From: Bradymonadales bacterium | GTDB taxonomy: Bacteria > Bdellovibrionota > UBA2394 | Length of the DNA: 64,000 nucleotides | Assembly: GCA_007693605.1 (NCBI GenBank) | Contig: REDG01000055.1 | Location: 14,353 to 78,352 of the forward strand | Direction: 5' to 3' | In this document: positions 41,088-56,704 of the stretch, piece by piece | How the letters are laid out: every line of letters starts with the position of its first letter | Numbering within the stretch: position 1 is the stretch's first letter | The notes under the pieces: model-generated | The model's input: only the letters and a program-made list of their open reading frames with translations | Told to the model about the DNA's origin: nothing | Databases searched by the model: none | Translations under genes and position numbers: made by a program

Positions 41088-41110
41088 GGCTCGCCCTACA
41101 GGCTGTAGGG
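41083..41110. promoter_or_regulatory. candidate enhancer (UAS): three GTAGGG/CCCTAC hexamers including the palindrome CCCTACAG-g-CTGTAGGG
   Basis: CGTAGGG (41083-89), CCCTAC (41094-99), TGTAGGG (41104-10), 105-130 bp upstream of the sigma54 promoter; the same CGTAGGG/TGTAGGG pair recurs at 48827-48853. Confidence 0.45.
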
Positions 41111-41213
41111 TTTTCACAACATACTCAATTGATTGAATTCAGACTTTGTCTCCCGGCTCCCCTTGTAGAGCCTTTTTTCTCGATATTGAGCCTCTTGCTG
41201 CATTGAAACTTTT

Positions 41214-41229
41214 TGGCATGCCTCTTGCT
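41214..41229 (+). promoter_or_regulatory. sigma54 -24/-12 promoter of the main CIS operon
   Basis: TGGCATG-cctc-TTGCT; one mismatch to TGGCACG-N4-TTGCW; GG/GC spacing exactly 10 nt; 40 nt upstream of ATG 41270. Confidence 0.65.
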
Positions 41230-41269
41230 CCTTCCTGGTTCCTGAAATGAGCCAGTGGAGTAAATAGAA

Positions 41270-41905
41270 ATGCAGTCAAAGGATTTTCTGAAATCATTAA
41301 CTCAGTTCTTAGTTCAGTTTTTGAATCGAGAACTTGAACGAGAAGGCTTCGGCAGTCGCTTTCGAGTGGAGGCGGGCTTAGAAGAAGTCAGCTCAGATGT
41401 CGACAAGAGAGGCTTCTGGAATCGTCTTGGTGGTCAAAGCCTTACTCGAGCCTTTCTACAGTCTTACTCCGTCCAGCGGATTCAGAACTCTCGAAACTCA
41501 GTTCTCAAAACAGAAGAGGTCGAGAAAGACGGAGAACGATTCTTTGTCAATCGTCGTAGCCCAGAGACCCTTGAAATCAAGTATCTTTTGGTGGGACCTT
41601 CTTTGGCCTCGAACGAAGGTCAAGAGCTCTACGCCGCCCTCTTTACAATCTTTTTTGATCACCTTCAAGTCGAGTGGTCCCGTGGGGATCAGACGGAGAC
41701 TCTTAAGCTCAATGATCTAAACGAAGAGGATGAGCCTCGAGCTCAAGCTTTACTTACAGAGCAGGGTATCTCAACGCTGCCTCTCTATTCATTTAGTGTT
41801 CGCGTGCCAATTGCGTCGGGTCGAGTGATATCTCAAGACCATCGTGTTTTGCACCGAGATCTTCAATTCAAACGAAAAACAACATCTGGAGGAAAACAAT
41901 CATGA
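41270..41905 (+). CDS. putative DUF4255 (Pvc16/Afp16 N-domain-like) tail terminator/cap protein
   Basis: About 210 aa, first gene of the operon just before the sheath as in many eCIS loci; LEIKYLLVGPS..EGQELYAALFTIFFDH resembles the DUF4255 core; moderate. Confidence 0.5.
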   Translation: MQSKDFLKSLTQFLVQFLNRELEREGFGSRFRVEAGLEEVSSDVDKRGFWNRLGGQSLTRAFLQSYSVQRIQNSRNSVLKTEEVEKDGERFFVNRRSPETLEIKYLLVGPSLASNEGQELYAALFTIFFDHLQVEWSRGDQTETLKLNDLNEEDEPRAQALLTEQGISTLPLYSFSVRVPIASGRVISQDHRVLHRDLQFKRKTTSGGKQS

Positions 41906-43044
41906 GCGAAATGACAGCGCCCGGCGTGTATACCAATATTACATCGAGCGGAAACAAACCTATTGCCTCGGTCGGATCTTCGACAGCGGCATTCATCGGA
42001 CAATCTTCACGAGGGCCTGAGAACCAAGCCACTCTCGTAACGAGCTGGGCTCAATATGAGAAGCAATTTGGGTCTTTCGGAGAATCCCAATACCTGGCCC
42101 ATGCCGTCTATGGATTCTTTGCGAACGGCGGAAGCAAAGCCTTCATCTGCAATATCGGAGCCGAAAAAGACGGACAAACCGACAATGATGTAACCGCGGC
42201 CTTAATGGGCGAAGATAAAGGTCCTGCCAAACGGACAGGCATCAATGTCTTCAACAACATTGAAGAGATCAGTCTGGTGGCTGCACCCGGAATCACTTCA
42301 CCAGAAGCCCAAGGCATTCTGATTGATCACTGCGAAAAATTAGGAGATCGATTCGCTCTTTTAGATTGTGAAGAGACCTTGCAGTCAGGGCTCGATGAGA
42401 TGTACCGACCAAAAGCATCAACCAATGCGGCTTGTTATTTTCCATGGGTACGAGTCTACGATCCCATCAAAAAAGAGAATGTCTATCAACCCCCGACGGG
42501 TTTTGTGGCTGGTCTGTATTCTCGTGTGGATTCTCAACGAGGTATTCACAAAGCGCCTGCCAATGAAACTCTTAATGGAGTGACGGGCCTCAAGTACAGT
42601 CTTACGAAAGAGGAGCAGAGCTTATTGAATCCAAGAGGAATCAATTTGATTCGAGATTTTGGGGATATGGGGATTAAAGTCTATGGGGCTCGCACGCTTA
42701 CGAATGACGCTGAGTGGAAATACATCAATGTTCGTCGACTCTTTCTCAATGTCAGAGAGAGCTTGCAAAAGGGCACGGAGTGGGCGGTTTTCGAGCCGAA
42801 CAACGAAACCCTTTGGGGAAATGTGAAGCGAAACATCGCAGCCTACCTCAAGACTCTTTGGAAGCAGGAAGCTTTGGTGGGGACCACTCCAGAAGAGGCC
42901 TTTTATGTAATTTGTGACCAAACGAATAATCCTCAAGAGTCTATCGACCAAGGGATTCTTAATGTCAGCATCGGAATCGCCCCTGTGAAACCAGCTGAAT
43001 TCGTTAGCATCACAATTCAACAAAAATACGAAGAAGATAATTAA
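41902..43044 (+). CDS. CIS/phage tail sheath protein (Afp2-like)
   Basis: N-terminal MTAPGVYTNI, AAFIGQSSRGP, GINLIRDFGDMGIKVYGARTLT, YINVRRLFLNVRESL, FYVICD; ATGA overlap with the upstream gene. Confidence 0.92.
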   Translation: MSEMTAPGVYTNITSSGNKPIASVGSSTAAFIGQSSRGPENQATLVTSWAQYEKQFGSFGESQYLAHAVYGFFANGGSKAFICNIGAEKDGQTDNDVTAALMGEDKGPAKRTGINVFNNIEEISLVAAPGITSPEAQGILIDHCEKLGDRFALLDCEETLQSGLDEMYRPKASTNAACYFPWVRVYDPIKKENVYQPPTGFVAGLYSRVDSQRGIHKAPANETLNGVTGLKYSLTKEEQSLLNPRGINLIRDFGDMGIKVYGARTLTNDAEWKYINVRRLFLNVRESLQKGTEWAVFEPNNETLWGNVKRNIAAYLKTLWKQEALVGTTPEEAFYVICDQTNNPQESIDQGILNVSIGIAPVKPAEFVSITIQQKYEEDN

Positions 43045-43557: not shown

Positions 43558-45081
43558 ATGAGCTTAGCGACTGCGGCACGAGACATTGATATCCTTATTC
43601 GGGCTCGATATCCGATCATCTATTGCAGCTCGTTCGAAGAGGCAAGGGTAGAGCGCCTATTGGAGGAGGTGTCCATTCAGAGAAAAGCCAAGCTCGTGGC
43701 CTGGACCCGTACTCGGGGCTTCGTTGATTCCAATGAAAAATCGATTGAAAAGATCCACTCTCCTGAGAAGGCCCTCGATTTTATCTCTGAAAAGGAAGGC
43801 CGTTTTTGTTTTCTTTTAAAAGACTTTCATCCCTATCTCAAAGACCCAGGAATCATCAGAAAATTGCGGGATCTATGTCGAGATTTAAAACTGACCCAGA
43901 AAAATGTGATTCTCCTTTCGCCCTGCTTGAACATTCCGTTGGAACTCTCGAAAGAGATGGCGGTTCTAGACATGCCGCTGCCAGATAGAAAAGAGATCGA
44001 GCAAATCTACAAAAAGATTCCTGCCGAAGTGGTCAGTTCCGATGCCGACGAGCTTGATGCCTGTATTGAGGCGGCCCTCGGGCTCACGGAAGAAGAAATC
44101 GAGAATGTTTTCGCCAAATCCGTCGTGTCGAAAGGGCAGGTGAATGTGGAAACAATTTTGAGCGAAAAGAGACAGTTGGTTCAGAAGTCGGGTATTCTCG
44201 ATTTCATTCCCGTACAAGAGAGTTTTGAAAACATCGGTGGCTTAGAGAATCTGAAAAGCTGGCTCGTTAGGCGTAGAGGTGGCTTTTCTCAAGAGGCAAG
44301 AGATATTAAGCTTCCTTGCCCTCGTGGAATTCTTCTGACGGGAATCCCTGGATGTGGAAAGTCTTTGACCGCAGTATGTACTGGTGCCGCATGGAAGCTT
44401 CCTGTCTTACGGCTTGATTTGGGCAAAGTCTTTAGTGGCCTGGTAGGCTCTTCTGAAGAAAATATGCGATTGGCCATTAAGACGGCAGAGAGCGTCGCGC
44501 CTTCAATTCTGTGGATCGACGAGATTGAAAAGGGGATGGCAGGAGGTTCCTCGAGTGGAGCAAGTGATGGTGGTACAGGCTCCCGTGTTTTTGGGACCTT
44601 CTTAACTTGGATGCAAGAAAAGAAGAAACCCGTTTTTGTTCTGGCGACCGCTAACGACATTTCCGGCTTGCCACCAGAGATGCTTCGAAAGGGTCGATTT
44701 GACGAGATCTTCTTTGTGGACTTGCCCAGCGAGTCGGAGCGCTTGTCGATCTTAGAAATTCACCTCAGTAAACGATCTTGGACTGTTGAAGGCTTCTCTA
44801 CCGAAGAGTTTTTAAAGCTATCCGAGGGGTTTACCGGGGCTGAAATCGAGCAGACCCTCATTGATGCTCGATTTGATGCTTTTTTTAGAGGAGATTCCCT
44901 GACCATGTCTGGCTTGAAGGAGGCCTTTTCCTCAACAGTGCCATTGTCTCGCTCCATGTCAGAGAAGATCAATGCGCTGAGAGCTTGGGCAAAGGATCGT
45001 GCCGTGTTGGCGTCAGGTCAAAGGTTGACCGAGACAAAAATTCAAGCCGTGCGAGCGCTTGAAATTGGAGGAGGTCTGTAA
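43558..45081 (+). CDS. Ycf46-like AAA+ ATPase
   Basis: N-terminus [22 protein letters not shown] resembles Ycf46-type ATPases; Walker A GIPGCGKS, Walker [11 protein letters not shown]-terminal [14 protein letters not shown]. Confidence 0.85.
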
Positions 45082-45473
45082 TGTCTCACTTCACAGAAAT
45101 CAAAACAAAACTGAAGAATCTTGAAACAATAAAAGAGGCGCTCGACGCACTCAACCTAGACTATGAATACTCTGAGGCGCTCACGCAGGTTCGGGGTTTC
45201 TATGGAGATCATATTGCCGCTGACTTTCGAATCTCTACCGGCACCGACTATGATTTGGGTCTCCGCCGAACGGAGTCTGGAGAGTATGAGTTTGTTGCCG
45301 ATTTCGAGATGTTAAGCGCACACAAATGCGATTACAAAGCCCTGCAATCAAAGATTCAGCAGAGCTATTCAATGATTCAGGTCAAAGAAGTCTTGAAAGA
45401 GCAGGGCTACGAGCTTGGTGAAGAACAGCTCGATGAGTCTGGTAATCTTCAGATGGTGGTGTCGAAATGGTAA
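45081..45473 (+). CDS. DUF1257 (Ycf35-like) protein
   Basis: [30 protein letters not shown] is the characteristic DUF1257 N-terminus; start overlaps the ATPase stop (TAATG). Confidence 0.75.
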   Translation: MSHFTEIKTKLKNLETIKEALDALNLDYEYSEALTQVRGFYGDHIAADFRISTGTDYDLGLRRTESGEYEFVADFEMLSAHKCDYKALQSKIQQSYSMIQVKEVLKEQGYELGEEQLDESGNLQMVVSKW

Positions 45474-45661
45474 AAAAGCGAGAAATCAGAATTGTCGTGG
45501 ATCCTGAAGGCAATACCCAGATTGAGGTCCTGAACGCAGAGGGGCAGGAGTGTCTCGAGTGGACAAGAGAGCTAGAATCTAAGCTGGGAGAGGTCGCGAA
45601 GAGAGATTTAAAAGAGGCTTATTATGTTGAGAGCTCAGAGAAGCTTCACCAAGAGTCTTGA
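45467..45661 (+). CDS. DUF2997 protein
   Basis: 64 aa; IRIVVDPEGNTQIEVLNAEGQECLEWTRELESKLG matches the DUF2997 pattern; usual partner of DUF1257. Confidence 0.7.
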   Translation: MVKKREIRIVVDPEGNTQIEVLNAEGQECLEWTRELESKLGEVAKRDLKEAYYVESSEKLHQES

Positions 45662-46508
45662 GCCGCCTCATCGGACTCGCGCCTTTTTAGTCGGGGACGA
45701 CAAGTTGGTCATTACCGACATGTGGCAAAGCTGGCAGGGATCCTTTTATCTCAGTCCAGAGGGCGGACAAAAGTCTCAGAGAGTGGGAGTGAATGACTTT
45801 GGGATTTTGCGGGGTGAAGAGCCTCCCATTGATCGAAACAAGGGGACCGGAGCGGTCTATATCTTTGGATGTCCCCTGCGGTGCAAGACCTGCTACCAGC
45901 CTGAGTTCTTCGGACGCAAGGCCCGAATGGAGTTCAGTGTTTCTGACTTGGCGCGACTATTTCTGGAGCTTCAAAGGGAAGGAGCAGCGACTTTGTCTAT
46001 TGTGATGGCGACACTTCAAAAGCCTGTTGTCAAAGCACTGATCAAGGCGAAAGAGATGGGTTTGAGCATCGATTGTGTTTTGAATTATTCTGGTTTTGTT
46101 TCGTCGAAGGATCTTTCAGAAGTTCAAGATCTCTTTGAAATCTTTGTTCCTGATGTCAAAGCCTTGAGTGAAAAATATCGCAAGGCACATGCTTTGTCTG
46201 AGGGCTATACAAAGACTGCTTTAGAGGGTGTTCGATATCTTGCTGAGAGCCAAAAGAACTTGATTGTGAGGCATCTCGTCTTGTCTCCTTTGCCAGATCC
46301 TCTGTCAGACATTCGGATTCTGTTTGATTGGATGAATCGGCAGGCCTTTCGTTTTCCTTTGTCAATTTTAACTCAGTACCTCTGCCCCATCGAGAAAAGG
46401 CTGTTTAGCTTGAGTGAAGAGCTTCTGAGTCAGCTACACGAACTCTCTGATCAATTTAGAGTTCCAATCTTTTTACAAGGAAGTGGAGACTATGATTACA
46501 AACTTTGA
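45624..46508 (+). CDS. radical SAM enzyme (activase-like); start uncertain
   Basis: CX3CX2C cluster motif GCPLRCKTCYQPEFF; about 290 aa; overlaps the neighbouring genes at both ends. Confidence 0.65.
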   Translation: MLRAQRSFTKSLEPPHRTRAFLVGDDKLVITDMWQSWQGSFYLSPEGGQKSQRVGVNDFGILRGEEPPIDRNKGTGAVYIFGCPLRCKTCYQPEFFGRKARMEFSVSDLARLFLELQREGAATLSIVMATLQKPVVKALIKAKEMGLSIDCVLNYSGFVSSKDLSEVQDLFEIFVPDVKALSEKYRKAHALSEGYTKTALEGVRYLAESQKNLIVRHLVLSPLPDPLSDIRILFDWMNRQAFRFPLSILTQYLCPIEKRLFSLSEELLSQLHELSDQFRVPIFLQGSGDYDYKL

Positions 46509-47565
46509 AATTCAAGTGCAGGGAATCTCAACAGACCGAGATCGGCTGCAGCAATTGAACTCTCCCACAGAGATGCTTGTAGAGAAGAGCCTCAATTCAG
46601 TGAGTGCCGCTTGGTTGGTTTATCCTGCTTCTTTCGAAGACTCATTGTTTTCCACAGATGAAGATTTTTTGTTTCCAGCAGCGATGCGTCTTATGACGCA
46701 GCTTCAAGAGCCCGAGTCGAATGACATTTCTGAAAGCATTTTCTTTCAAGGGCTACTTTGCTCCTACTCCATTCAAGCAAGTGGTTGTTTGGTGCTTGAG
46801 TATCGAGACCCTTTGATTGTGGCGACCGAGGTCGATCGGTCAGAGGCCTGGCAAAAGACCTCCCTGAAAGAGGTTGTTTCGCAAGCACTGCGAAATGCTT
46901 CAGCCGAAAGAGGGGGCCGAAGCCTCAAGGTGAGTTTTCAAGATGAGGCGGAGTTTCCAATTGAAAGCCTTACCAATATCGGTCAAACAGACTTTGAGTT
47001 TGTAAGAGATTTAGCTGAAAAGTTCGGCTTTAGATTTTTCTTCCATCACGCTGAAAAAGGTTCTGACGAAGTGACATTCTTCAAGCCGAATTTCTCTCGA
47101 CTTCCTGACTCAGAGCTAGCCTATGAAGACATCCAAAGCACGGCTTCGATTAAAATCTCTACTTTAAAGGCTCCCAACACGGTCTTTGTGCAGAGAGGGA
47201 CGGGCGTTGAAGAAGTTGGGATTGAGACCTATCAAAATCAGTTTTCGAAGTGCTTTGAGAAGAAGGTTGCGCTGAGAGAAAGGCTCGGCATTGAGCTAAA
47301 TTCCCATCTTTATTGTCCGGGGATATCTCAGCGAGAGGCACAGGAGATGGCTCAGGGGGAGTTTCTGGGTCGAATTCTTGAAGGGGATCGGTTGCACTTC
47401 CAGTCAGAGAGGGTTTTTCCCATTGGCAGTCTGATAAAGGTCAATCCTTCAGACGATTCGATTGTCACGGGCAGAAGGTTTCATGGAGTCTATCTGATCG
47501 ATCGTGTTCGGTCTCGGCTTGATGGATTTCGTTGGCTACACGAATACGAAGGAGTGAGACCATGA
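46492..47565 (+). CDS. gpD / VgrG-N (gp27-like) baseplate hub protein
   Basis: GQTDFEFVRDLAEKFGFRFFFHHAEKGSDEVTFFKP is the late-control-D/VgrG signature; no gp5-type OB or beta-helix follows. Confidence 0.75.
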   Translation: MITNFEIQVQGISTDRDRLQQLNSPTEMLVEKSLNSVSAAWLVYPASFEDSLFSTDEDFLFPAAMRLMTQLQEPESNDISESIFFQGLLCSYSIQASGCLVLEYRDPLIVATEVDRSEAWQKTSLKEVVSQALRNASAERGGRSLKVSFQDEAEFPIESLTNIGQTDFEFVRDLAEKFGFRFFFHHAEKGSDEVTFFKPNFSRLPDSELAYEDIQSTASIKISTLKAPNTVFVQRGTGVEEVGIETYQNQFSKCFEKKVALRERLGIELNSHLYCPGISQREAQEMAQGEFLGRILEGDRLHFQSERVFPIGSLIKVNPSDDSIVTGRRFHGVYLIDRVRSRLDGFRWLHEYEGVRP

Positions 47566-48335
47566 AATTTAACGCGTTTGAGAAACTGGCTTTTCAGGAA
47601 GAGAAAAGAAAGAGATCCCAGGGCTTTGAGAGCCTGACTTTAGAGGGCCTAGAGCTGTCGAGTCGGGACCTCAGCGATATAAGTAGTCAGGCGCTTGAAC
47701 TGCTCGGAGTAAAGATTTTACCGGAGGGAAAGCTGCGAAACCTTCAGGCTTTATCCGGATCTATTCGGGGTCTTCAATTGGTCAACTGCGAGATCTTTCA
47801 AAGCAATCTGACAGAGATTAACTGCCAAAGGGCCTTTGCGGTCGAGACGATTTTCGATCTCGTGTATTTTAGCCGCTGTAAACTCCAGGCTTCGGACTTT
47901 CGAAATGCACGATTTGTCTACTCGAGTCTGCAGGAGTGTGAGGCAGTCGACAATGATTTTAGTTTTAGTCAGTGGAAGTCTGTCCGCTTCATTCGATCTT
48001 CGATCTTTCATGAGAATCTTTGGTCTCAGGCCATGTTTTCTGGCTGTCTGTTTCTTGAGATTGACTTTAGCAAATCTGAATCCTTGAACTTTCAGAGTGT
48101 TCGACACTCCCAATTCTTCAATTGCGATTTTCGATCAGATCAAAGAGAGGCTTTAGAGGGAAGCAATTTGGTCAGTAAAGGTCCGCCCCCTTCAGTTTCG
48201 CTGAAGCCTTCTGAGGCGGAAGTCGATGAGTCAAGCTTAGAGCGCCCACGACCGCTTCGCCCTTCGGCGACAACGGACTTGAGCCCATCGAGGCTTGGCC
48301 GTTTTTCTGCGATCGAGGTGCCCCATGCAAAGTAG
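47562..48335 (+). CDS. pentapeptide-repeat protein with disordered Pro/Ser-rich tail
   Basis: About 20 consecutive pentads with central L/F (CKLQA SDFRN ARFVY SSLQE CEAVD NDFSF ...); ATGA overlap with the hub gene. Confidence 0.65.
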   Translation: MKFNAFEKLAFQEEKRKRSQGFESLTLEGLELSSRDLSDISSQALELLGVKILPEGKLRNLQALSGSIRGLQLVNCEIFQSNLTEINCQRAFAVETIFDLVYFSRCKLQASDFRNARFVYSSLQECEAVDNDFSFSQWKSVRFIRSSIFHENLWSQAMFSGCLFLEIDFSKSESLNFQSVRHSQFFNCDFRSDQREALEGSNLVSKGPPPSVSLKPSEAEVDESSLERPRPLRPSATTDLSPSRLGRFSAIEVPHAK

Positions 48336-50687: not shown

Positions 50688-51274
50688 TGTCGTTCTCAAA
50701 GAGCGCACTGCCTCTTCCTTCTGTTCTAGATCGAATCTCAGGAGATCAGCGCGAAAAGTGGACACAAGACTTCTTCACATTGTTGCGGCCTCTCGATCAA
50801 ACAGATGAACTCAAAAGAATTGTTCACGCACTAGTGGCTGCCCCCGTTGTTCTGGACAGGGTTTTTAGTGACGAGTGGACCCCAGAAGTCAGAACGAAGC
50901 TTATGCCCGTGTTGCATGAGTATATCAGCTGCCGAGGCACTCCAAGGGCACTTAGACTTCTTGTGCAAAGCTTAACGGGCCTGTCTCGCTTCAAGATTTT
51001 TGAAAGAACACTTCCGAAGCCGCATCTTGCAATCGCTACGCATCGGCTTGGGGCAGATGCCCGCCTGTTTTCAGAGGGAGCCAAACGACAGTTCGTTCTG
51101 ATTCAGTTTGATCACTACGAACGGGAGCTAGGCGAGATCGATCGCAAAGAGCTTGAGAAAATTATTCAGTCTGAGGTCGATCCTTCCTTGGTATGTCTTT
51201 TGGACTTTAAAAAGAAAAAGCTTCGGAGGAAGCTACCCCAACTCAGTCAGTTCAAAATAGGAGAGTCTTTATGA
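50684..51274 (+). CDS. P2 gpI-like tail/baseplate protein (Afp12 N-domain-like)
   Basis: LPSVLDR..FFTLLRPLD..CRGTPRALRLLVQSLTG matches the phage tail protein I-type domain; ATGA overlap. Confidence 0.65.
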   Translation: MMSFSKSALPLPSVLDRISGDQREKWTQDFFTLLRPLDQTDELKRIVHALVAAPVVLDRVFSDEWTPEVRTKLMPVLHEYISCRGTPRALRLLVQSLTGLSRFKIFERTLPKPHLAIATHRLGADARLFSEGAKRQFVLIQFDHYERELGEIDRKELEKIIQSEVDPSLVCLLDFKKKKLRRKLPQLSQFKIGESL

Positions 51275-52788
51275 ATCAAGCCATTTCACCACAGCGTTGT
51301 GTTTACTTTTCTCAAGGTCAAAGGTTAACCCCAGAAGATCTCAATGCTCTGAATGACTTTTCTTTGAAGAGATCTGCCCTGGTGAGTAGAAGCTTGCTGG
51401 GAGCTTCAGGTATTGTCGAGGGCATTATGCAGAGCTTGAGGCTGAAGCCCTTGGCGGACGATCCTCTTTCGTTGAAGCTCGAACCCGGCATTGCGATCAA
51501 TGAATTCGGAGATCTATTGCCGATCGAAGAGGAGCGACTGATCAGGCTCTCAGATTTGGCAGGCCCAGAGACTCAGACCTATTTCTTGCAGCTTCAGTCT
51601 GACGAAAGTTTAGAGGGCGCGTTTGTCGATGAAGAGCTCGACCAGTTAAAGTCTTTCAAGTTTAGAAATATCAGCACTCGTCTATTCATCTCAGCAGAGC
51701 GAGTCGAAGGCGCAGTAGAAATTGCAAGAGTTCGATTGAACAGTAGCGTCTTTGCGCTGAAAGAGTGCCGCGAAGATGAAGCGATCGAGGCCGGATTGGG
51801 CGTCATCGATCAGCGGCACGCCCCTAGAATCCAGCTCTACAGCGCTCGCGCCGTGGATTTTTCAAGACATCAGCAGATGAAACAAAGTCTTCAGTCCTTA
51901 AAAGAGGCGCTCTATGAGATGAAGAGCCGATACCCTTCGCTAAGTTCCATCGAGAGGGCTTTGCAAGATTTGAGCTCCCTAGAGCTGGAGATTGCTGAAA
52001 GAAACCTTGCTTTGTCTCGTTTAGATCTCGTGCTCATAAGGAGTCAGAGAAGCCTGAGGGATTTGATCGAAGAGTTGCGAGAAGTTCACCAGCCTCTGAG
52101 AGATATGGGTGTCGATTTTTGGGAAAGGCTCTTTAGTCTGATAAGCGATCTTCCGGGTGTGAGTCTTGTTCAAGAGGCGGCGGTAAAGTTTCAGAAGTTG
52201 AGCCACTTGGATCTTGAGATTCGAGAGCAGATTCTTGACAAACGAACGGATGAGGAAAAGCGAGTTCTGATTCAGCAAGCTTTGAACGACCTTCAGCCCT
52301 TTCGGTTTTCGTTTTCGAACACCCATGCCCTGGGCGGCAGTCTCTTTCGCAGACTGATCTTTTGGGACGGAGACGAGGTCTTTCAGAACAGTTCATTCGA
52401 GGGAGAATATCGAACCCTCAAAACTCTAAGGGCTGCCTACGAGCAGTCCGAGCTTAGCACAGAGAAGGGACTTTTCGTTTCTCCAGGAAAACTTCACTTC
52501 AATTTGCCCGCAATGGACCCAGAGGTCCTCAGTCTCTTGTTTCTGAAAATTTATAAGCGAAGGGGTCGCCAAGAATTCAGTCTCTCTTTAAACGCTTCTC
52601 CGTTGAAAGCGCTGGCCCTTCGGCCTCATGAGTCTGTTGATCGGTTTTTAAACATCGCCGTACAGATCCGCCCTGAACAGCTCGTCAAAGGGGTGAATCA
52701 GCTGGTGATTGATGTGGCAGAAGTGGATTTAGACTTCGGTTTGATGGCCTTGGCCGTCTACCAAGAAACAACAGGAGGAAAGCCATGA
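51271..52788 (+). CDS. hypothetical protein, likely baseplate-associated
   Basis: 505 aa; ATGA-coupled after the gpI-like gene, where eCIS loci place wedge extension or fibre-like proteins; N-terminal FSQGQRLTPEDLNALNDF; no family recognised. Confidence 0.4.
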   Translation: MNQAISPQRCVYFSQGQRLTPEDLNALNDFSLKRSALVSRSLLGASGIVEGIMQSLRLKPLADDPLSLKLEPGIAINEFGDLLPIEEERLIRLSDLAGPETQTYFLQLQSDESLEGAFVDEELDQLKSFKFRNISTRLFISAERVEGAVEIARVRLNSSVFALKECREDEAIEAGLGVIDQRHAPRIQLYSARAVDFSRHQQMKQSLQSLKEALYEMKSRYPSLSSIERALQDLSSLELEIAERNLALSRLDLVLIRSQRSLRDLIEELREVHQPLRDMGVDFWERLFSLISDLPGVSLVQEAAVKFQKLSHLDLEIREQILDKRTDEEKRVLIQQALNDLQPFRFSFSNTHALGGSLFRRLIFWDGDEVFQNSSFEGEYRTLKTLRAAYEQSELSTEKGLFVSPGKLHFNLPAMDPEVLSLLFLKIYKRRGRQEFSLSLNASPLKALALRPHESVDRFLNIAVQIRPEQLVKGVNQLVIDVAEVDLDFGLMALAVYQETTGGKP

Positions 52789-53291
52789 TTTTTCGATTCT
52801 TTAAAGCCCTTTGGGCCTCTCTGGTCGCGTTTGTTCGACCCTATGATTCAGAGGGAGGAAAGAATCAGAGGGGGATGCCGTTACTCAGCGAGTGGAAGCA
52901 TCACGATCCCTATCAAGCCTTCTTTAAGAGTCCGGGACTTAAATCTAAAGGGCAGGCTTGTGCGGCCCTCATTTTCGAATCGGGCCGTGGCAAAGGGGAG
53001 ATGATTCAGCTGCCCGCGGGTCGTTTTAGGCTTGGGGCTTGCTTAGATCAGGAGATTGTTGTTCGAGAGACAGCACGAGATTGTGAGTCTTTCTCGTTAG
53101 AAGTGAGCTCTGAAGTCGTCACGGCTCAGGCGGAAAAGGGAGACTTCAAGGTGAACGGACACAAACTCAGCTTTGCACGGCTTGTCGACCAAGATGAGTG
53201 TGAATTCAACGGGGTTAGATTTTTCTTTTTAGAGATTCAAAGCACAGAATTGGAGAGCGACGATGAGATTCTTCTTAAAGAAGCAGTTTAG
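52785..53291 (+). CDS. FHA-like domain protein
   Basis: LPAGRFRLGACLDQEIVVRE...FKVNGHKL..LVDQDECEFNGVRFFF follows the FHA G-R ... N-G ... D pattern; degenerate. Confidence 0.5.
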   Translation: MIFRFFKALWASLVAFVRPYDSEGGKNQRGMPLLSEWKHHDPYQAFFKSPGLKSKGQACAALIFESGRGKGEMIQLPAGRFRLGACLDQEIVVRETARDCESFSLEVSSEVVTAQAEKGDFKVNGHKLSFARLVDQDECEFNGVRFFFLEIQSTELESDDEILLKEAV

Positions 53292-54972
53292 TTTGAGAGA
53301 TTTTACTCAAAAGCTGAGATCCGAATGGATTAAACGCGCAGAAAAGGCCACTACTGCTTTTCAGAAAGCCCTGGTTCCGGCTGAAAAGGAAAGCGATGAG
53401 CTGCCCTGGGTTGAGCAAACGGCCTGTATTGGTTTTGTGGAGGATCTGGCTGAGCAACAGATTTATGGACTCCAATTCGGACTGAATGAGCTGGGGACTT
53501 CGAAGATTCAATTGAGCAAAGAGGGGGCGAAGTGCTTGGAGGCCTCGAAGGCCCAAGAGATTTATCACGGAGATGTTTTTGAGACAGCCGGGAAGGCTTA
53601 CCGGCTAAGTCTACTATCTCTACGATCGATGGGTCGTTACTTTAGCCTACTTCTCCTGGTGCTTGGACCCTCCCTTTTCCCCTTGATGGCCCAAGAGAGC
53701 GCCATTGAGGTGACTGCCAGGAAGGCCTTCTCAATCGACTTTCATCTTTCAGGAACTCGCCAGATCGATTCTAAAGACATTCGAATGAATGTCTTTGGCG
53801 ACTCTGAGATTTCCACATTGAATCGGGTGAGCTCAAGATTACAGCCAGAAGATCTTCATGTGTTTGTGGATGCCAGTGGTCTGTGCCTTCAGAGAGGAAT
53901 GGAGGGAGTGATCAATCAGGGACTCTCTGACTTGCTTTCTAAGCTCTCTAGCCAATCAAGAGTGTCGATCTCAGAGTTCTACCAAGATAGTGATGGCACA
54001 GAAGTCTATCGGCGCCGAATCGACGAGCAGAGGCCCGCACAGATTGCTGAACGAAGAAGCTTAATTAACTGTCAAGAGGATCGACGCAGTCTCAACGCTT
54101 TGAGTGTTTTTCAACGACTCGGCGACTCAGAGCTTGGGGGCAGCTTTCTTCTGATTTCATCAGGAAACATTCGAGCGATAGAGGGAATTCAATCTCGACT
54201 GGCAGAGGCTGGAACGAAGCTGGTGGTGGCTCTCTATTCCCCAGAGCTTACCCCTTACGCGAACGAAGTGCTCAGCCCATTGACCGAAGCTCGCGGGGGT
54301 CATCACTTTATCTGGGCTCGAGATAGCGTTCTTGATCTCTCTCAAAACTACCCCTTCTTTTGGCGCTTTCGCTTCTCAAACCAACTACCAGTCTCGTGGG
54401 ACTCCAAGGCGTACTCTTACGAGATCCTCATGGGCGAAGACCCGTTGATGACGGGTAGCTTGAATTATAAACGCAGTCCGATCAGAGCCTTCTTCTTCTG
54501 GCTCGGGCTAGCCGCTTTGATTGTGCTCGCATTGGCTCTAGTTTCGTTGGCTGTTTGGTCTGTCGTCAAGTTCTACCGCCGACCGCTGTGTTCCGAAACC
54601 GGTCAAGTGATGTCTCGATCTTGGAGAGGCTCCCTTTTTGCCGCACTTGGAAAAAGGCCCGTATTGATTGTTTTTAAGAGAGGGGAATACCATCGATCTC
54701 TTGTTCTGAAAAACTATAAAACACAAGTCGGCAGAGGGCTCGGATCTCCTCTTAAGTTGAAGTACAGGGGTTCAGACTCTGGGTTGCTGTTTACCGAAGT
54801 GGCCGAGCGCTGCTTCGAAGTGGATTCGATGAGTGCCAATGCTTTGATTCTGAATGGAATGAGACAGAAGGGGCCCCTGGCTCTTCGACAGGGTGATCGC
54901 ATTCAATGGGGCCCCTACGAAATCCACTTCTGCTTTGGGAGTAGTCAAGAGATGGCGAAGGAGGCCGCATAA
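53263..54972 (+). CDS. bitopic/loop membrane protein: FHA-like, TM, about 260-aa extracytoplasmic domain (possibly vWA-like), TM, FHA
   Basis: TMs YFSLLLLVLGPSLFPLM and AFFFWLGLAALIVLALALVSLAVWSVV; C-terminal VGRGLGS..SMSANALILNGMRQKGPLALRQGDRIQWGPYEIHF is a good FHA match; the vWA call (HVFVDASGLC) is weak. Confidence 0.55.
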   Translation: MRFFLKKQFSLRDFTQKLRSEWIKRAEKATTAFQKALVPAEKESDELPWVEQTACIGFVEDLAEQQIYGLQFGLNELGTSKIQLSKEGAKCLEASKAQEIYHGDVFETAGKAYRLSLLSLRSMGRYFSLLLLVLGPSLFPLMAQESAIEVTARKAFSIDFHLSGTRQIDSKDIRMNVFGDSEISTLNRVSSRLQPEDLHVFVDASGLCLQRGMEGVINQGLSDLLSKLSSQSRVSISEFYQDSDGTEVYRRRIDEQRPAQIAERRSLINCQEDRRSLNALSVFQRLGDSELGGSFLLISSGNIRAIEGIQSRLAEAGTKLVVALYSPELTPYANEVLSPLTEARGGHHFIWARDSVLDLSQNYPFFWRFRFSNQLPVSWDSKAYSYEILMGEDPLMTGSLNYKRSPIRAFFFWLGLAALIVLALALVSLAVWSVVKFYRRPLCSETGQVMSRSWRGSLFAALGKRPVLIVFKRGEYHRSLVLKNYKTQVGRGLGSPLKLKYRGSDSGLLFTEVAERCFEVDSMSANALILNGMRQKGPLALRQGDRIQWGPYEIHFCFGSSQEMAKEAA

Positions 54973-55958
54973 TGAGAACTTTCCCGATTTTAATACTTTG
55001 GATCATTTCTCTTTCAGCCTGTTCGACGAAGCAATTTGAGCTCGGCCATAAACGACACGAAAGCATTGATCGAGGCCGGTTTGAGGTGAAAACAGATGGA
55101 GTTCCAAGGGTCTTGGTGGAGGCGAGCAATCTGTCTGACCTCTGCCAGCAGAACCGATTGCCGCCAGTTGTCTTAAGGGGAAAGAATCTCTCGCAAGAAA
55201 TTCCAGCAGAAGTCTACTGCGATCGAGATCAAAAAATGATGATTGCTCGATTCCGTGATCGCTTAAGTCCTGGCGAATATCAGATTCGAACCAATAGTCA
55301 GCTGTTCTCTCGACCTCTCTCAAGCGTCGTTGTTTTCAGTCCTCTGAGGCCGGAAGAGTTTTCAGGGGCCGATCGACTCATCGAGGGAGCTCGAAACCTA
55401 CAAGAGGGAGTGAACGAGGGGAGTATCAATAGCAGTGCGGCGGACCGAACCGACTGGTGGCGATTCGATGTATCAAGTTTTGCAAGATACTCCCTTGTGT
55501 TTTCAGAGACTGCCGAGCCAAAGGAGTTGTCGGCTGAGTTGTTTCGTGTGATCGGAGGCGAGCTCGAAAAAGTTCGCAACCTTCGATCGGATCGAAGCCT
55601 TCAAATACCAATGGAGGGGGAGTATCTCCTGAAGGTCTCTGGAGCTCTCTTTGGGCAGCACAGGAACTACCATATTGCCGTGAGAAAGCTGAGTCAGGCC
55701 GTGGCTCAACCAAGGTCAGCGAATCAGCATCTACCGATTCTTGACGCGTGGCCCATTGACTTTCAGTCGTCAGCCATACTTCTAGGGGCGGGCAGTCGAA
55801 TGGGCTTAAGTCCGAACCAAGACTTAAAGGTCTTTTCTAAATCAGGTGAGCTTATCGACATTTGCAAGATTAGGACTTTGGTTGAAGAAGAAGCCGAATG
55901 CCATATTCAGAAATACATCAGTGATGCGCAGACTGTAGTCGTTAGGAGTGCTTTATGA
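54972..55958 (+). CDS. lipoprotein with PPC-like beta-sandwich region
   Basis: Lipobox LILWIISLSAC-S; DRTDWWRFDVSSFARYSLVF..EGEYLLKVSG resembles a pre-peptidase C-terminal domain. Confidence 0.55.
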   Translation: MRTFPILILWIISLSACSTKQFELGHKRHESIDRGRFEVKTDGVPRVLVEASNLSDLCQQNRLPPVVLRGKNLSQEIPAEVYCDRDQKMMIARFRDRLSPGEYQIRTNSQLFSRPLSSVVVFSPLRPEEFSGADRLIEGARNLQEGVNEGSINSSAADRTDWWRFDVSSFARYSLVFSETAEPKELSAELFRVIGGELEKVRNLRSDRSLQIPMEGEYLLKVSGALFGQHRNYHIAVRKLSQAVAQPRSANQHLPILDAWPIDFQSSAILLGAGSRMGLSPNQDLKVFSKSGELIDICKIRTLVEEEAECHIQKYISDAQTVVVRSAL

Positions 55959-56704
55959 CAGATTTTGGATTAGTTCGGGCGACTGTGACTGACAATGAAG
56001 ACCCCGATCTTTTGGGTCGAGTTCGGGTGCGATACCAGTGGCTTGGAGGGCCGAGCGCCCAGCAACAAAGCGCATGGGCTCGTGTTGCTCGTCCGCAAAG
56101 TCATGCAGGGGCGGGCGATTGGTTTCTGCCTGAAGTGGGCGATGAGGTGTTGGTTGGATTTGAGTTCAATCGAGTCGAGGCTCCCATTGTTCTTGCCTCG
56201 CTCTTTACAGATCAATCGGCACCGCCCAAATCAGATTTGGAGGGTGATCACAATCAGAACGGAAAGAACAATCTTCGCTTTCTAAGAACCAAGGCGGGGC
56301 ACCTTTTGTGCTTCGACGATCTAGAAGGTCGAGAATCGATTCGCCTACAAGACTCGAAAAACAATCGTCTTCTAATAGAGAGCCACTCGGGCAAGGTGAC
56401 ATTGGAGGACAGTTCCGGAAATCGACTCTGCTTGGACAATGAAAAGATTAGTCTGGAGGATAAGAATGGGAACGGTTTCGAGTTGCAGGGGGCTGAGATA
56501 AGGATTCGCTCTAGTTCAAGTGTCAAGATTGAGACGGCCTCTCGTGTGGAGATTGGGAAGGGCGCCTCTGAGGCCTTAGTGAAGGGAGACAGCTTTATGC
56601 AGCTATTCAATGCGCACACTCACCCAACGCCTCGCGGTCCGTCGGGGCCACCGCAGGTTCCTATGACTCCCGCCCAACTTTCACAGAAGGTGAAAACCGC
56701 ATGA
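55955..56704 (+). CDS. gpV / gp5-type spike protein (OB fold plus beta-helix)
   Basis: GLVRATVTDNEDPDLLGRVRVRYQW..AWARVARP..GDWFLPEVGDEVLVGFEFNRVEAPIVLASLF, then repetitive beta-helix and HTHPTP near the C-terminus. Confidence 0.85.
   Translation: MTDFGLVRATVTDNEDPDLLGRVRVRYQWLGGPSAQQQSAWARVARPQSHAGAGDWFLPEVGDEVLVGFEFNRVEAPIVLASLFTDQSAPPKSDLEGDHNQNGKNNLRFLRTKAGHLLCFDDLEGRESIRLQDSKNNRLLIESHSGKVTLEDSSGNRLCLDNEKISLEDKNGNGFELQGAEIRIRSSSSVKIETASRVEIGKGASEALVKGDSFMQLFNAHTHPTPRGPSGPPQVPMTPAQLSQKVKTA

What the first reader, a model, noticed from the sequence alone, without database searches (positions are those of the whole stretch)
52785..55958. FHA / FHA-TM-periplasmic-TM-FHA / lipoprotein module embedded between baseplate and spike genes
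Three consecutive coupled genes encode the following. First, a soluble FHA-like protein. Second, a protein with an N-terminal FHA-like region, two clear TM helices bracketing an extracytoplasmic domain of about 260 aa (possibly vWA-like), and a good C-terminal FHA domain. Third, a lipoprotein (lipobox LSAC) with a PPC-like beta-sandwich. FHA domains read phospho-threonine. In T6SS, Fha/TagH together with envelope lipoproteins form the threonine-phosphorylation trigger pathway. eCIS of the Afp/PVC type have nothing comparable. The position inside the structural operon suggests either a trans-envelope anchor or a firing and assembly checkpoint. No Ser/Thr kinase or phosphatase is visible in this window.
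Basis: partly seen in the sequence, partly recalled or inferred. Interest (0 to 1): 0.75.

Follow-up and report, generated by a model that had tools for sequence, protein, structure and literature searches.

The report
Envelope-spanning adaptor module in Bdellovibrionota injection system
Three coupled genes inside a phage-tail-like injection system of an uncultured Bdellovibrionota bacterium appear to encode an undescribed membrane-spanning adaptor that probably ties the machine to the cell envelope, not a phospho-threonine switch.

Summary
The three genes are real, at the stated coordinates, and translationally coupled. They lie between the baseplate/fibre-slot genes and the spike.

- **A (168 aa)** is a soluble YscD-type FHA-like protein.
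- **B (569 aa)** has a cytoplasmic N-domain of unresolved fold, then TM1. A roughly 260-aa exported beta-sandwich plus vWA domain follows (AF2 pLDDT 77; Foldseek hits ArnB, integrin beta and Sec23/24 at about 1e-7). Then come a strong TM2, a decayed zinc ribbon and a true FHA fold (profile against PDB: OdhI 3.6e-5).
- **C (328 aa)** is a lipoprotein with an invariant lipobox Cys. Its claimed PPC fold could not be verified.

The trio is rare: B has 19 relatives among 1.84 billion cluster representatives. It is strictly syntenic in all 10 related loci recovered. Among the 80 GTDB CIS loci nearest by spike similarity, it occurs only in the three Bdellovibrionota/Oligoflexia MAGs.

The canonical pThr-binding residues are not conserved. 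No Hanks kinase or PP2C phosphatase lies in the window or in nine related loci checked.

Best reading: a phospho-independent, envelope-spanning adaptor or anchor. It is analogous to TssJLM, PrgH/PrgK or CisA, but homologous to none of them.

I rate it a new variant of a known kind, interest about 0.65.

The parts
51271..52788 (+). 505-aa fibre-slot protein. It has a Cis13/Cis19-type N-terminal baseplate-attachment domain and is the conserved upstream partner of the module.
   Evidence: The family profile (N-terminal residues 1-94) matches All3314 (Cis19, the crown protein) of the Anabaena tCIS structure 7b5h at E=1.6e-5. NCBIfam CIS13_fam hits at 4.4e-4, below the cut-off. The gene lies immediately upstream of A in all related loci.
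52785..53291 (+). Gene A: 168-aa soluble protein with a conserved N-terminal amphipathic/hydrophobic helix and a YscD-type FHA-like domain (about residues 60-150).
   Evidence: Pfam Yop-YscD_cpl hits at E=0.0033 in the window protein and in 5 of 7 family members (best 1.1e-6). The PDB profile search gives Rv1747 FHA at 0.044 and YscD at 0.24. There is no TM segment. The pThr-binding residues are absent.
53263..53628 (+). B residues 1-122: cytoplasmic N-terminal domain, a helix followed by an 8-strand beta domain with a conserved HGD motif. Its fold is unresolved. In some relatives it is a separate gene.
   Evidence: AF2 secondary structure, pLDDT about 67-81. No FHA signal by profile. It is encoded as a stand-alone gene of about 170 aa in L006, L009 and L087.
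53635..53694 (+). B residues 125-144: TM1, a signal-anchor.
   Evidence: Kyte-Doolittle score is 1.58 here and 1.27-1.97 across the family. K+R count is 32 on the N-side against 13 on the C-side over 11 members. In the split variant seen in L006 it is replaced by an N-terminal signal-peptide-like segment.
53695..54477 (+). B residues 145-405: exported beta-sandwich plus vWA domain with a degenerate MIDAS site (D203-x-S205-x-L207, S276, S300) and an invariant pair C208/C270.
   Evidence: AF2 pLDDT is mostly about 80-94 here. Foldseek against PDB gives ArnAB 8s05 at 6.5e-8, integrin beta, Sec23/24 and vWA 4fx5. BFVD hits are also vWA proteins.
54478..54576 (+). B residues 406-438: TM2.
   Evidence: Kyte-Doolittle maximum is 2.73 here and 1.75-3.06 across the family. 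AF2 predicts a helix at 406-438.
54577..54657 (+). B residues 439-465: remnant of a zinc ribbon. Only C443 is kept here.
   Evidence: A full CxxC...CxxC is present in P0019 and L006, and CxxH...CxxC in P0005. The window protein and most other members have lost it.
54658..54936 (+). B residues 466-558: cytoplasmic FHA-fold domain without a conserved phospho-threonine pocket.
   Evidence: In the family profile search against PDB, the top 22 hits are all FHA domains (OdhI 3.6e-5, Ki-67 9.4e-5, KIF13B, GarA, EmbR). At the canonical positions the family has Arg 3/12, His 0/12 and Asn 1/12.
54972..55958 (+). Gene C: 328-aa lipoprotein. The signal peptide and lipobox LSAC end at Cys17 (nt 54972-55022). 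The mature part has four more invariant Cys. Its fold is untested.
   Evidence: Cys17 is invariant and C58, C83, C298 and C310 are invariant. There is no Asp at +2 in any of the six family members read. No Pfam, NCBIfam, PHROG or PDB profile hit. Only 5 clusters exist among 5.8 billion.
55955..56704 (+). Spike (gp5/VgrG OB domain), the conserved downstream partner.
   Evidence: PF04717 at E=2.4e-21. It directly follows C in every locus that extends that far.

Best explanation
A, B and C form a lineage-specific, envelope-spanning accessory complex of a contractile injection system (CIS) found in a small clade of Bdellovibrionota/Oligoflexia.

**Shown:**
- B sits in the inner membrane. Its N-domain and its zinc-ribbon-remnant/FHA domain are cytoplasmic, and a beta-sandwich/vWA domain is exported.
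- C is a lipoprotein.
- A is a soluble YscD-like FHA-fold protein.
- The three genes always occur together, between a Cis13/Cis19-like fibre-slot protein and the spike.

**Inferred:**
- The cytoplasmic FHA-fold domains act as phospho-independent docking scaffolds, as in T3SS SctD/YscD/PrgH. They would bind the baseplate periphery, with the 505-aa Cis13/19-like protein as the prime candidate partner.
- The periplasmic vWA domain binds the outer-membrane lipoprotein C.
- Together they fix the baseplate at the cell envelope, and probably license firing there.
- This would make the system cell-anchored and T6SS-like in operation, although it uses no TssJLM homologue.
For: - **Gene structure and coupling:**
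- **Topology:** TM2 is strong, and TM1 is conserved with a 32 vs 13 K+R bias. The split variant seen in L006 starts B with a signal-peptide-like segment. Invariant Cys pairs occur only in the exported parts of B and C.
- **Folds:** the AF2 model has pLDDT 77.4. Foldseek finds vWA in both PDB and BFVD. The C-terminal domain is FHA by profile. A matches YscD in 5 of 7 members.
- **Strict synteny of 505-A-B-C-spike:** the full five-gene run is seen in L002, L003, L004, L006, L007, L009 and L087, and the visible part matches in the truncated contigs L001, L005 and L008. Some of these loci rearrange the rest of the cluster.
- **Fusion/fission of B's N-domain** links it functionally to B.
- **Restriction to one clade:** 19 relatives among 1.84e9 representatives. 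The module is in 3 of 80 GTDB CIS loci, all Bdellovibrionota/Oligoflexia.
- **B is the only clear integral membrane protein in the cluster**.
- **Position:** the module occupies the slot where eCIS encode tail fibres and Streptomyces encodes the membrane adaptor CisA (PMC12237407). It lies next to a protein sharing the baseplate-binding N-domain of Anabaena Cis13/Cis19. Cis13 anchors that CIS to a membrane (PMC8894136).
- **No phospho-signalling signature:**
Against: - No interaction, localisation or function has been measured. Everything after the domain map is inference.
- C's fold and B's N-domain fold are unresolved.
- The positive-inside signal at TM2 is neutral (35 vs 42).
- TM1 is only moderately hydrophobic and carries AxA-like motifs, so it might be cleaved.
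- Lipoprotein sorting rules in Bdellovibrionota are unknown, so C could stay in the inner membrane.
- The organisms are uncultured MAGs, and nothing shows whether the particles are retained or released.
- The degenerate MIDAS site weakens the case for classic metal-dependent ligand binding by the vWA domain.
Confidence: 0.5

Rival explanations
1. Transmembrane sensor or firing checkpoint rather than a static anchor. The exported vWA domain and lipoprotein C would sense an envelope or contact signal. B would relay it across the inner membrane to its cytoplasmic domains and to A. These would transiently recruit or trigger otherwise free cytoplasmic CIS particles, as proposed for Streptomyces CisA.
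For: - The architecture and synteny evidence is the same as for the anchor model.
- CisA is also a membrane protein encoded after the baseplate genes. It has an extracytoplasmic ligand-binding-like domain and is not part of purified particles (PMC12237407).
- vWA domains are typical ligand or protein binders.
- The ArnB-like plus ArnA-like (zinc ribbon-FHA) domain set comes from a regulatory pair (PMC12852372).
Against: - The MIDAS site is degenerate (DxSxL, with S in place of D).
- A dedicated lipoprotein and two extra cytoplasmic proteins or domains look more like a structural assembly than a sensor.
- There is no sequence homology to CisA.
- The data cannot separate this model from the anchor model.
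Confidence: 0.25
2. A T6SS-like threonine-phosphorylation pathway. A and B's FHA domains would read phospho-threonine written by a PpkA-like kinase encoded elsewhere in the genome, switching assembly or firing on and off as TagH/Fha1 does.
For: - An FHA fold is present in B's C-terminus and in A.
- The window's own B keeps an Arg and an Asn at two of the four canonical positions.
- Some T6SS loci keep tagH without a local kinase (PMC13584744).
Against: - The canonical Arg/Ser/His/Asn positions are not conserved. The closest homologue, at 49% identity, has Pro at the Arg position. His is 0/12 and 0/7.
- No Hanks or PP2C motif occurs in the window or in nine related loci.
- There is no match to TagH models.
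- A's best match is YscD, an FHA-like fold known (from my own knowledge of the YscD structures 4a0e and 4d9v) to lack the pThr site.
Confidence: 0.1
3. An assembly, export or release factor, or a target-binding adhesin that replaces the tail fibres of a released extracellular particle. For example, the vWA domain could act as the receptor-binding element.
For: - The genes occupy the tail-fibre slot.
- vWA domains are adhesion modules.
- No recognisable tail fibre is present in the cluster.
Against: - A protein with two TM helices and a lipid-anchored partner is hard to reconcile with a soluble released particle.
- The FHA-fold domains lie on the opposite side of the membrane from the vWA domain.
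Confidence: 0.1

Closest known systems
T6SS membrane complex TssJ-TssL-TssM (plus the accessory FHA protein TagH/Fha1)
   Same: It is a CIS-associated set made of an outer-membrane-type lipoprotein, an inner-membrane protein with a large periplasmic domain, and a cytoplasmic FHA protein, all encoded within the structural cluster. The proposed role is to dock the baseplate to the envelope.
   Different: There is no sequence match to TssJ, TssL (DotU), TssM (IcmF) or TagH. The periplasmic domain is vWA/beta-sandwich rather than IcmF-like. The FHA folds lack the pThr pocket, and no PpkA/PppA is nearby.
T3SS inner-membrane ring SctD (YscD/PrgH) with the lipoprotein SctJ (YscJ/PrgK)
   Same: It combines an FHA-like cytoplasmic domain without pThr-binding residues, a TM segment and a periplasmic domain, paired with a lipoprotein. 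A's only database match is the YscD cytoplasmic domain.
   Different: Here the YscD-like domain is a separate soluble protein (A). B's periplasmic part is vWA, not ring-building motifs. All matches are below the curated cut-offs. C does not match the YscJ/FliF family.
Streptomyces CisA (SCO4242), membrane adaptor of the cytoplasmic CIS-Sc (PMC12237407)
   Same: It is a membrane protein encoded just after the baseplate genes in the tail-fibre slot. Its N-terminus is cytoplasmic and its domain outside the membrane looks like a binding domain. It is proposed to recruit or trigger the CIS at the membrane.
   Different: CisA is a single bitopic protein with a disordered N-terminus and a solute-binding-like C-terminal domain. 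It has no FHA, no vWA and no lipoprotein partner, it comes from a monoderm host, and it shares no sequence similarity.
Anabaena thylakoid-anchored CIS: Cis13 (TM tail fibre), Cis12 extension, Cis19 crown (PMC8894136)
   Same: The 505-aa gene directly upstream of A shares the N-terminal domain of Cis19/Cis13. The concept is also the same: fibre-slot proteins re-engineered into membrane anchors.
   Different: In Anabaena the anchor is a TM helix on the fibre itself. Here the fibre-slot protein has no clear TM, and a separate three-gene membrane module follows it.
ArnB (beta-sandwich + vWA) and ArnA (zinc ribbon + FHA) regulatory pair of Sulfolobus; Sec23/24 core (PDB 8s05; PMC12852372)
   Same: It is the best structural match to B's exported domain (Foldseek 6.5e-8). 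B contains the same four domain types: beta-sandwich, vWA, zinc ribbon (intact in some relatives) and FHA.
   Different: In B these domains are fused in one chain but separated by a TM helix, so the vWA and FHA parts lie on opposite sides of the membrane. The MIDAS site and pThr pocket are degenerate. Sequence identity is about 10%, and there is no kinase.

Membership tests
FHA domain (PF00498), functional phospho-threonine readers | Beta-sandwich FHA fold detectable by profile | tested here: met
   B C-terminus: the top 22 PDB profile hits are all FHA domains, the best at 3.6e-5. A: met only weakly (Rv1747 FHA at 0.044; YscD_cpl in 5 of 7 members). B N-terminus: not met. On single sequences Pfam FHA is far below its cut-off (E=0.24).
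FHA domain (PF00498), functional phospho-threonine readers | Conserved pThr-binding residues (Gly-Arg, Ser-x-x-His, Asn-Gly) | tested here: not met
   hmmalign of OdhI, Rv1747 and Ki-67 to the family profiles. B C-terminus: Arg 3/12, Ser 0-4/12, His 0/12, Asn 1/12. A: Arg 0/7, Ser 3/7, His 0/7, Asn 0/7.
T6SS threonine-phosphorylation pathway (TagE/PpkA, TagG/PppA, TagH/Fha) | Hanks-type kinase and PP2C phosphatase associated with the locus | tested here: not met
   Motif scans of all six frames of the window and of L001-L009 found none. Pfam scans of the window ORFs found none. The rest of the genome could not be tested.
T6SS threonine-phosphorylation pathway (TagE/PpkA, TagG/PppA, TagH/Fha) | TagH-type protein (NCBIfam/Pfam model match) | tested here: not met
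   No TagH/Fha model hit for A or B in Pfam or NCBIfam.
T6SS membrane complex TssJLM | Homology to TssJ, TssL/DotU or TssM/IcmF | tested here: not met
   No Pfam or NCBIfam hit for A, B or C. No PDB sequence hit.
T6SS membrane complex TssJLM | Lipoprotein plus inner-membrane protein spanning the periplasm and docking the baseplate | not testable with these tools
   The architecture is compatible, but interaction and localisation need experiments or multimer modelling.
von Willebrand factor A domain | Rossmann-like vWA fold | tested here: met
   The AF2 model has pLDDT of mostly about 80-94 over residues 150-405. Foldseek against PDB and BFVD is dominated by vWA proteins at 1e-7 to 1e-10. Pfam VWA models do not hit.
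von Willebrand factor A domain | Complete MIDAS motif DxSxS...T...D | tested here: not met
   The family has D203-x-S205-x-L207, S276 at the Thr position and S300 at the Asp position. D203 and S205 are invariant; L207, S276 and S300 are nearly invariant (at least 90%). Mapping the last two positions rests on motif and secondary-structure register, not on a superposition.
T3SS SctD/YscD cytoplasmic domain (PF16697) | Profile match above the curated threshold | tested here: inconclusive
   The window's A scores 18.1 bits against a cut-off of 33.2. Five of 7 A-family members and 2 of 11 B-family members match at E<=0.1-1, the best at 1.1e-6. NCBIfam SctD hits at E=0.087.
Bacterial lipoprotein | Signal peptide with a lipobox [LVI][ASTVI][GAS]C and a conserved Cys | tested here: met
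   The N-terminus is MRTFPILILWIISLSAC. The Cys is invariant in five aligned family members plus L007's C, with lipoboxes LSAC, VSGC, LSGC and LTSC and one off-consensus LTHC. No dedicated predictor was available.
PPC (pre-peptidase C-terminal) beta-sandwich | Profile or structural match to PPC domains | tested here: not met
   No Pfam hit in any of 5 members at E<=1. No PDB profile hit. There is only a by-eye resemblance of the D-x-TDWW...G-x-Y motif. No structure model could be made.
Contractile injection system (Afp/PVC-like gene set) | Sheath, tube, gp25, gp6-like baseplate, hub, spike and AAA+ ATPase in one cluster | tested here: met
   Pfam and NCBIfam hits are Phage_sheath_1/1C, Phage_T4_gp19, GPW_gp25, TIGR02243, Phage_GPD, Phage_base_V and AAA.

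The most novel reading that the evidence does not exclude
The A-B-C module is the membrane complex of a previously unrecognised class of cell-anchored contractile secretion system in Bdellovibrionota. Functionally this would be a new T6SS-like subtype built on an Afp-like CIS with a non-TssJLM trans-envelope anchor made of FHA folds, a vWA domain and a lipoprotein. It would fire through the producer's own envelope, plausibly during contact with prey.
Probability: 0.3. Interest if true: 0.85.

Novelty: new variant of a known kind. Interest (0 to 1): 0.65.

Why it matters
How a phage-tail-like injector is tied to a membrane decides whether it acts as a released particle, a contact-dependent secretion system or a suicide device.

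Only a few anchoring solutions are known: TssJLM, the Bacteroidota equivalents, Cis13/Cis12 in cyanobacteria and CisA in Streptomyces. This module would be another, independent solution, in a phylum known for predatory bacteria. It is built from domains (FHA fold, vWA, zinc ribbon) that are better known from signalling.

It also gives concrete, testable parts for in situ imaging and interaction studies. It is a further case, alongside YscD/PrgH, of FHA folds used as phospho-independent scaffolds in envelope machines.

None of the four full-text searches aimed at it turned up a description of the module.

Tried and rejected
- **First structure prediction of B** with a 2-sequence alignment was unusable (pLDDT 46.6). 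It was replaced by the 11-sequence run.
- **Word-index homologue searches** found only B itself and one relative, even with an 11-sequence profile. The exhaustive HMM search was needed.
- **The first GTDB scan with B found nothing**. This was a false negative caused by two very narrow back-translated patterns. The spike-based scan plus my HMM screen showed that three GTDB MAGs do carry the module.
- **I suspected the 505-aa protein was TssK-like.** No support was found. Instead its N-domain matches Cis19/Cis13.
- **The weak ImpA_N (TssA) hit on the 403-aa protein** downstream (E=0.068) occurs in only 1 of 5 family members, so I treat it as chance.
- **B N-terminus as FHA:** hhalign probabilities were 9% and 1.4%. 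The PDB hits were spurious TPR-like designed proteins matching the helix.
- **PPC fold for C:** no Pfam or PDB support. The last homologue search gave only 5 family members, with no Pfam annotation.
- **PHROGs:** nothing for A, B, C or their neighbours.
- **Literature searches** for FHA, forkhead-associated, DUF1257, membrane anchor or Bdellovibrio together with contractile injection systems found no description of this module.

Full report
**1. The observation**

The window carries three + strand ORFs at exactly the stated coordinates: A at 52785-53291 (168 aa), B at 53263-54972 (569 aa) and C at 54972-55958 (328 aa). They are coupled to each other and to their neighbours:
- The stop of the upstream 505-aa gene overlaps A's start (ATGA).
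- A overlaps B by 29 nt.
- B's stop overlaps C's start (TAATG).
- C's stop overlaps the start of the spike gene (ATGA).
- Each start has an AGGAG-type ribosome-binding site 6-7 nt upstream.

The surrounding cluster (39.9-63.6 kb) is a contractile injection system (CIS). In gene order it contains:
- two sheath paralogues and a gp19-type tube;
- an AAA+ ATPase, DUF1257, DUF2997 and a radical-SAM protein;
- a gpD-type hub and a pentapeptide-repeat protein;
- gp25 and a TIGR02243 baseplate protein (Cis11-like, 580 aa);
- a 196-aa protein and a 505-aa protein;
- A, B and C;
- a PF04717 spike, a second AAA+ ATPase, a tube-like protein and further genes.

**2. What each protein is**

*Protein A* has no TM segment. 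Its only database match is the FHA-like cytoplasmic domain of the T3SS ring protein YscD. In the window protein this is sub-threshold (E=0.0033, 18 bits against a cut-off of 33). It recurs in 5 of 7 family members, the best at 1.1e-6. A family profile against PDB puts an Rv1747 FHA domain and YscD on top, at marginal E-values of 0.044 and 0.24.

*Protein B* has these features:
- **TM2.** A very hydrophobic TM at 406-438 (Kyte-Doolittle 2.73).
- **TM1.** A moderate one at 125-144 (1.58). TM1 is conserved in all 11 full-length relatives. It has 32 K+R residues on its N-side against 13 on its C-side.
- **Split variants.** In L006, L009 and L087 the N-terminal roughly 170 residues are a separate soluble protein. 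In L006, B then begins with a signal-peptide-like segment, MKLSMIKFWVASCMLLPTIAYA|AGE. This supports a topology of N-in, middle domain exported, C-in.
- **Structure model.** With an 11-sequence alignment AF2 gave pLDDT 77.4, and mostly about 80-94 over residues 150-405.
- **Fold matches.** Foldseek against PDB returned vWA-containing proteins only: ArnAB 8s05 at 6.5e-8, integrin beta I-domains, the Sec23/24 trunk, the Catenulispora vWA 4fx5 and ITIH1. BFVD gave vWA proteins as well. The domain is a beta-sandwich plus vWA, as in ArnB.
- **MIDAS site.** It is incomplete: D203-x-S205-x-L207, S276 and S300, in place of DxSxS...T...D.
- **Cysteines.** C208 and C270 are invariant, consistent with a disulfide outside the cytoplasm.
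- **Zinc ribbon.** After TM2 some relatives have an intact zinc ribbon (CxxC...CxxC in P0019 and L006; CxxH...CxxC in P0005). The window protein keeps only C443.
- **C-terminal FHA fold.** In a family profile search against PDB the top 22 hits are all FHA domains: OdhI 3.6e-5, Ki-67 9.4e-5, KIF13B, GarA, EmbR and others.
- **N-terminal domain.** It has no sequence-level FHA signal. The model shows only an 8-strand beta domain ending in a conserved HGD motif. I leave its fold open.

*Protein C* starts MRTFPILILWIISLSAC.
- The lipobox Cys is invariant, and four further Cys are invariant in the mature part.
- No member has Asp at +2. By the E. coli rule (established knowledge, untested in this phylum) this predicts outer-membrane sorting.
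- No Pfam, NCBIfam, PHROG or PDB profile match exists.
- The PPC idea rests only on a by-eye D-x-TDWW / G-x-Y pattern.

**3. Rarity, synteny and host**

An exhaustive HMM search of 1.84 billion cluster representatives found 19 relatives of B at E<=1e-3. About ten of these are full-length. C has five clusters among 5.8 billion.

Every relative whose contig could be read shows the same order: a roughly 505-aa protein, A, (B-N), B, C, spike, AAA+. These are L001-L007, L009 and L087; L008 is truncated, and the 3'-truncated contigs L001 and L005 show only the part of this order that they reach. The order holds even where the rest of the cluster is rearranged, as in L087.

A scan of GTDB species representatives with the spike gave 80 CIS loci. 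The three closest (47-49% identity) are Bdellovibrionota/Oligoflexia MAGs. Profiles of A, B and C hit only those three and none of the 77 others, which include haloarchaea, Paenibacillus, Chloroflexota and Uabimicrobium. The window also carries flagellar genes, which fits such a host. B is the only clear integral membrane protein in the cluster.

**4. Is it a phospho-threonine device?**

I aligned three canonical FHA domains to the family profiles and read off the pThr-binding positions.

| Position | B C-terminal family | A family |
|---|---|---|
| Arg | 3/12 | 0/7 |
| Ser | 0-4/12 | 3/7 |
| His | 0/12 | 0/7 |
| Asn | 1/12 | 0/7 |

Further points:
- The 49%-identical homologue of the window's B has Pro at the Arg position.
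- No Hanks-kinase or PP2C motif occurs in any frame of the window or of nine related loci.
- Pfam scans of the window ORFs show none.
- There is no match to TagH.

The T6SS TPP reading is therefore poorly supported (background: PMC13584744). It cannot be excluded for the unseen remainder of the genome.

**5. Most likely mechanism**

The 505-aa protein just upstream shares the N-terminal domain of Anabaena Cis19 (All3314; E=1.6e-5) and of the CIS13 family. In the thylakoid-anchored CIS, the N-terminal domains of the fibre-like Cis13 bind the baseplate, and Cis13 carries the membrane anchor (PMC8894136). In Streptomyces the same gene slot encodes CisA, a membrane adaptor required for firing (PMC12237407).

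From this I infer the following:
- A, B and C are an envelope-spanning adaptor.
- The cytoplasmic FHA folds (A and B's C-terminus) and B's N-domain dock to the baseplate periphery or the fibre-slot protein without phosphorylation, as YscD/PrgH-type FHA-like domains do.
- The exported vWA/beta-sandwich domain binds lipoprotein C at or near the outer membrane.
- The CIS is thereby positioned, and possibly licensed to fire, at the envelope.

Shown: the domain map, topology indicators, synteny, clade restriction and loss of the pThr residues. Inferred: all interactions, C's membrane, and the anchor-versus-trigger distinction.

I put about 0.5 on anchor/adaptor, 0.25 on a CisA-like transient sensor or trigger, 0.1 on a genuine pThr checkpoint and 0.1 on other roles.

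**6. Comparison and novelty**

The module works like TssJLM, PrgH/PrgK or CisA, but it fails every homology test against them. Its exported domain plus zinc ribbon-FHA tail has the same domain set as the archaeal ArnB/ArnA pair (PMC12852372). Here those domains are fused across a membrane.

None of the four searches aimed at the module itself turned up a description of it. The two broader searches, for DUF1257 and for Bdellovibrio CISs, found nothing relevant either.

I classify it as a new variant of a known kind, namely a CIS membrane adaptor. The more novel reading is a new T6SS-like class of cell-anchored system in Bdellovibrionota. The data do not exclude that reading, and I give it about 0.3.

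Noticed in passing
window 43558-46508: A block of AAA+ ATPase (507 aa), DUF1257, DUF2997 (small ORF at about 45.47-45.66 kb) and a radical-SAM protein sits inside the CIS operon between the tube and the hub. It is conserved in L001 and L004. The cluster therefore has two AAA+ ATPases, and I know of no CIS in which this enzyme trio has been described.
   Followed up: partly
window 47532-48335: A pentapeptide-repeat protein lies between the gpD-type hub and gp25. It is conserved in L001-L004 and L007. This is roughly where other CIS encode small baseplate or spike-tip parts.
   Followed up: no
window 51271-52788: The N-terminus of the 505-aa protein is homologous to Anabaena tCIS Cis19 (All3314, the crown protein) and to NCBIfam CIS13_fam. 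The rest (a helical middle and a beta-rich C-terminus) has no match. Distant relatives occur in 14 of the other CIS loci, downstream of the spike.
   Followed up: partly
L006 4249-6137; L009 7085-8991; L087 8141-10008: In a sub-clade B is split into a soluble protein of about 170 aa and a protein of about 455 aa that, in L006, starts with a signal-peptide-like segment. An intact CxxC...CxxC zinc ribbon before the FHA domain was seen in L006 and in P0019. The sub-operon there is AAA-507-A-BN-B-C-spike-AAA.
   Followed up: partly
window 53635-53694 and the A2 alignment: TM1 of B ends in AxA-like motifs in many relatives (SYA|D, AQA|Q, ARA|E). This raises the possibility that the N-domain is cut off by signal peptidase.
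   Followed up: no
window 52785-52845: A begins with a conserved hydrophobic/amphipathic helix (M..R.L.A..A...AF.RAYD; Kyte-Doolittle 1.2). It is below TM strength and may be a membrane- or partner-binding helix.
   Followed up: no
window 1-32600: The region upstream of the CIS includes flagellar genes (FliF, FliG, a FliI-type ATPase, flagellin, FliD), a sigma-54 activator, a histidine kinase and an adenylate/guanylate cyclase fragment at 1435-1989.
   Followed up: partly
window 39927-43044: Two sheath paralogues (386 and 380 aa) are separated by an unannotated 211-aa gene.
   Followed up: no
L002 (NCBI GCA_016307145.1, contig JADMIO010814621.1): One module-bearing contig comes from an NCBI assembly whose contig numbering exceeds 800,000. 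This suggests a very fragmented metagenome or a host-genome assembly containing bacterial sequence.
   Followed up: no
L087 14682-15293: In the JGI 612-kb contig a CAP-domain (PF00188) protein follows the CIS genes. It is a possible effector candidate.
   Followed up: no
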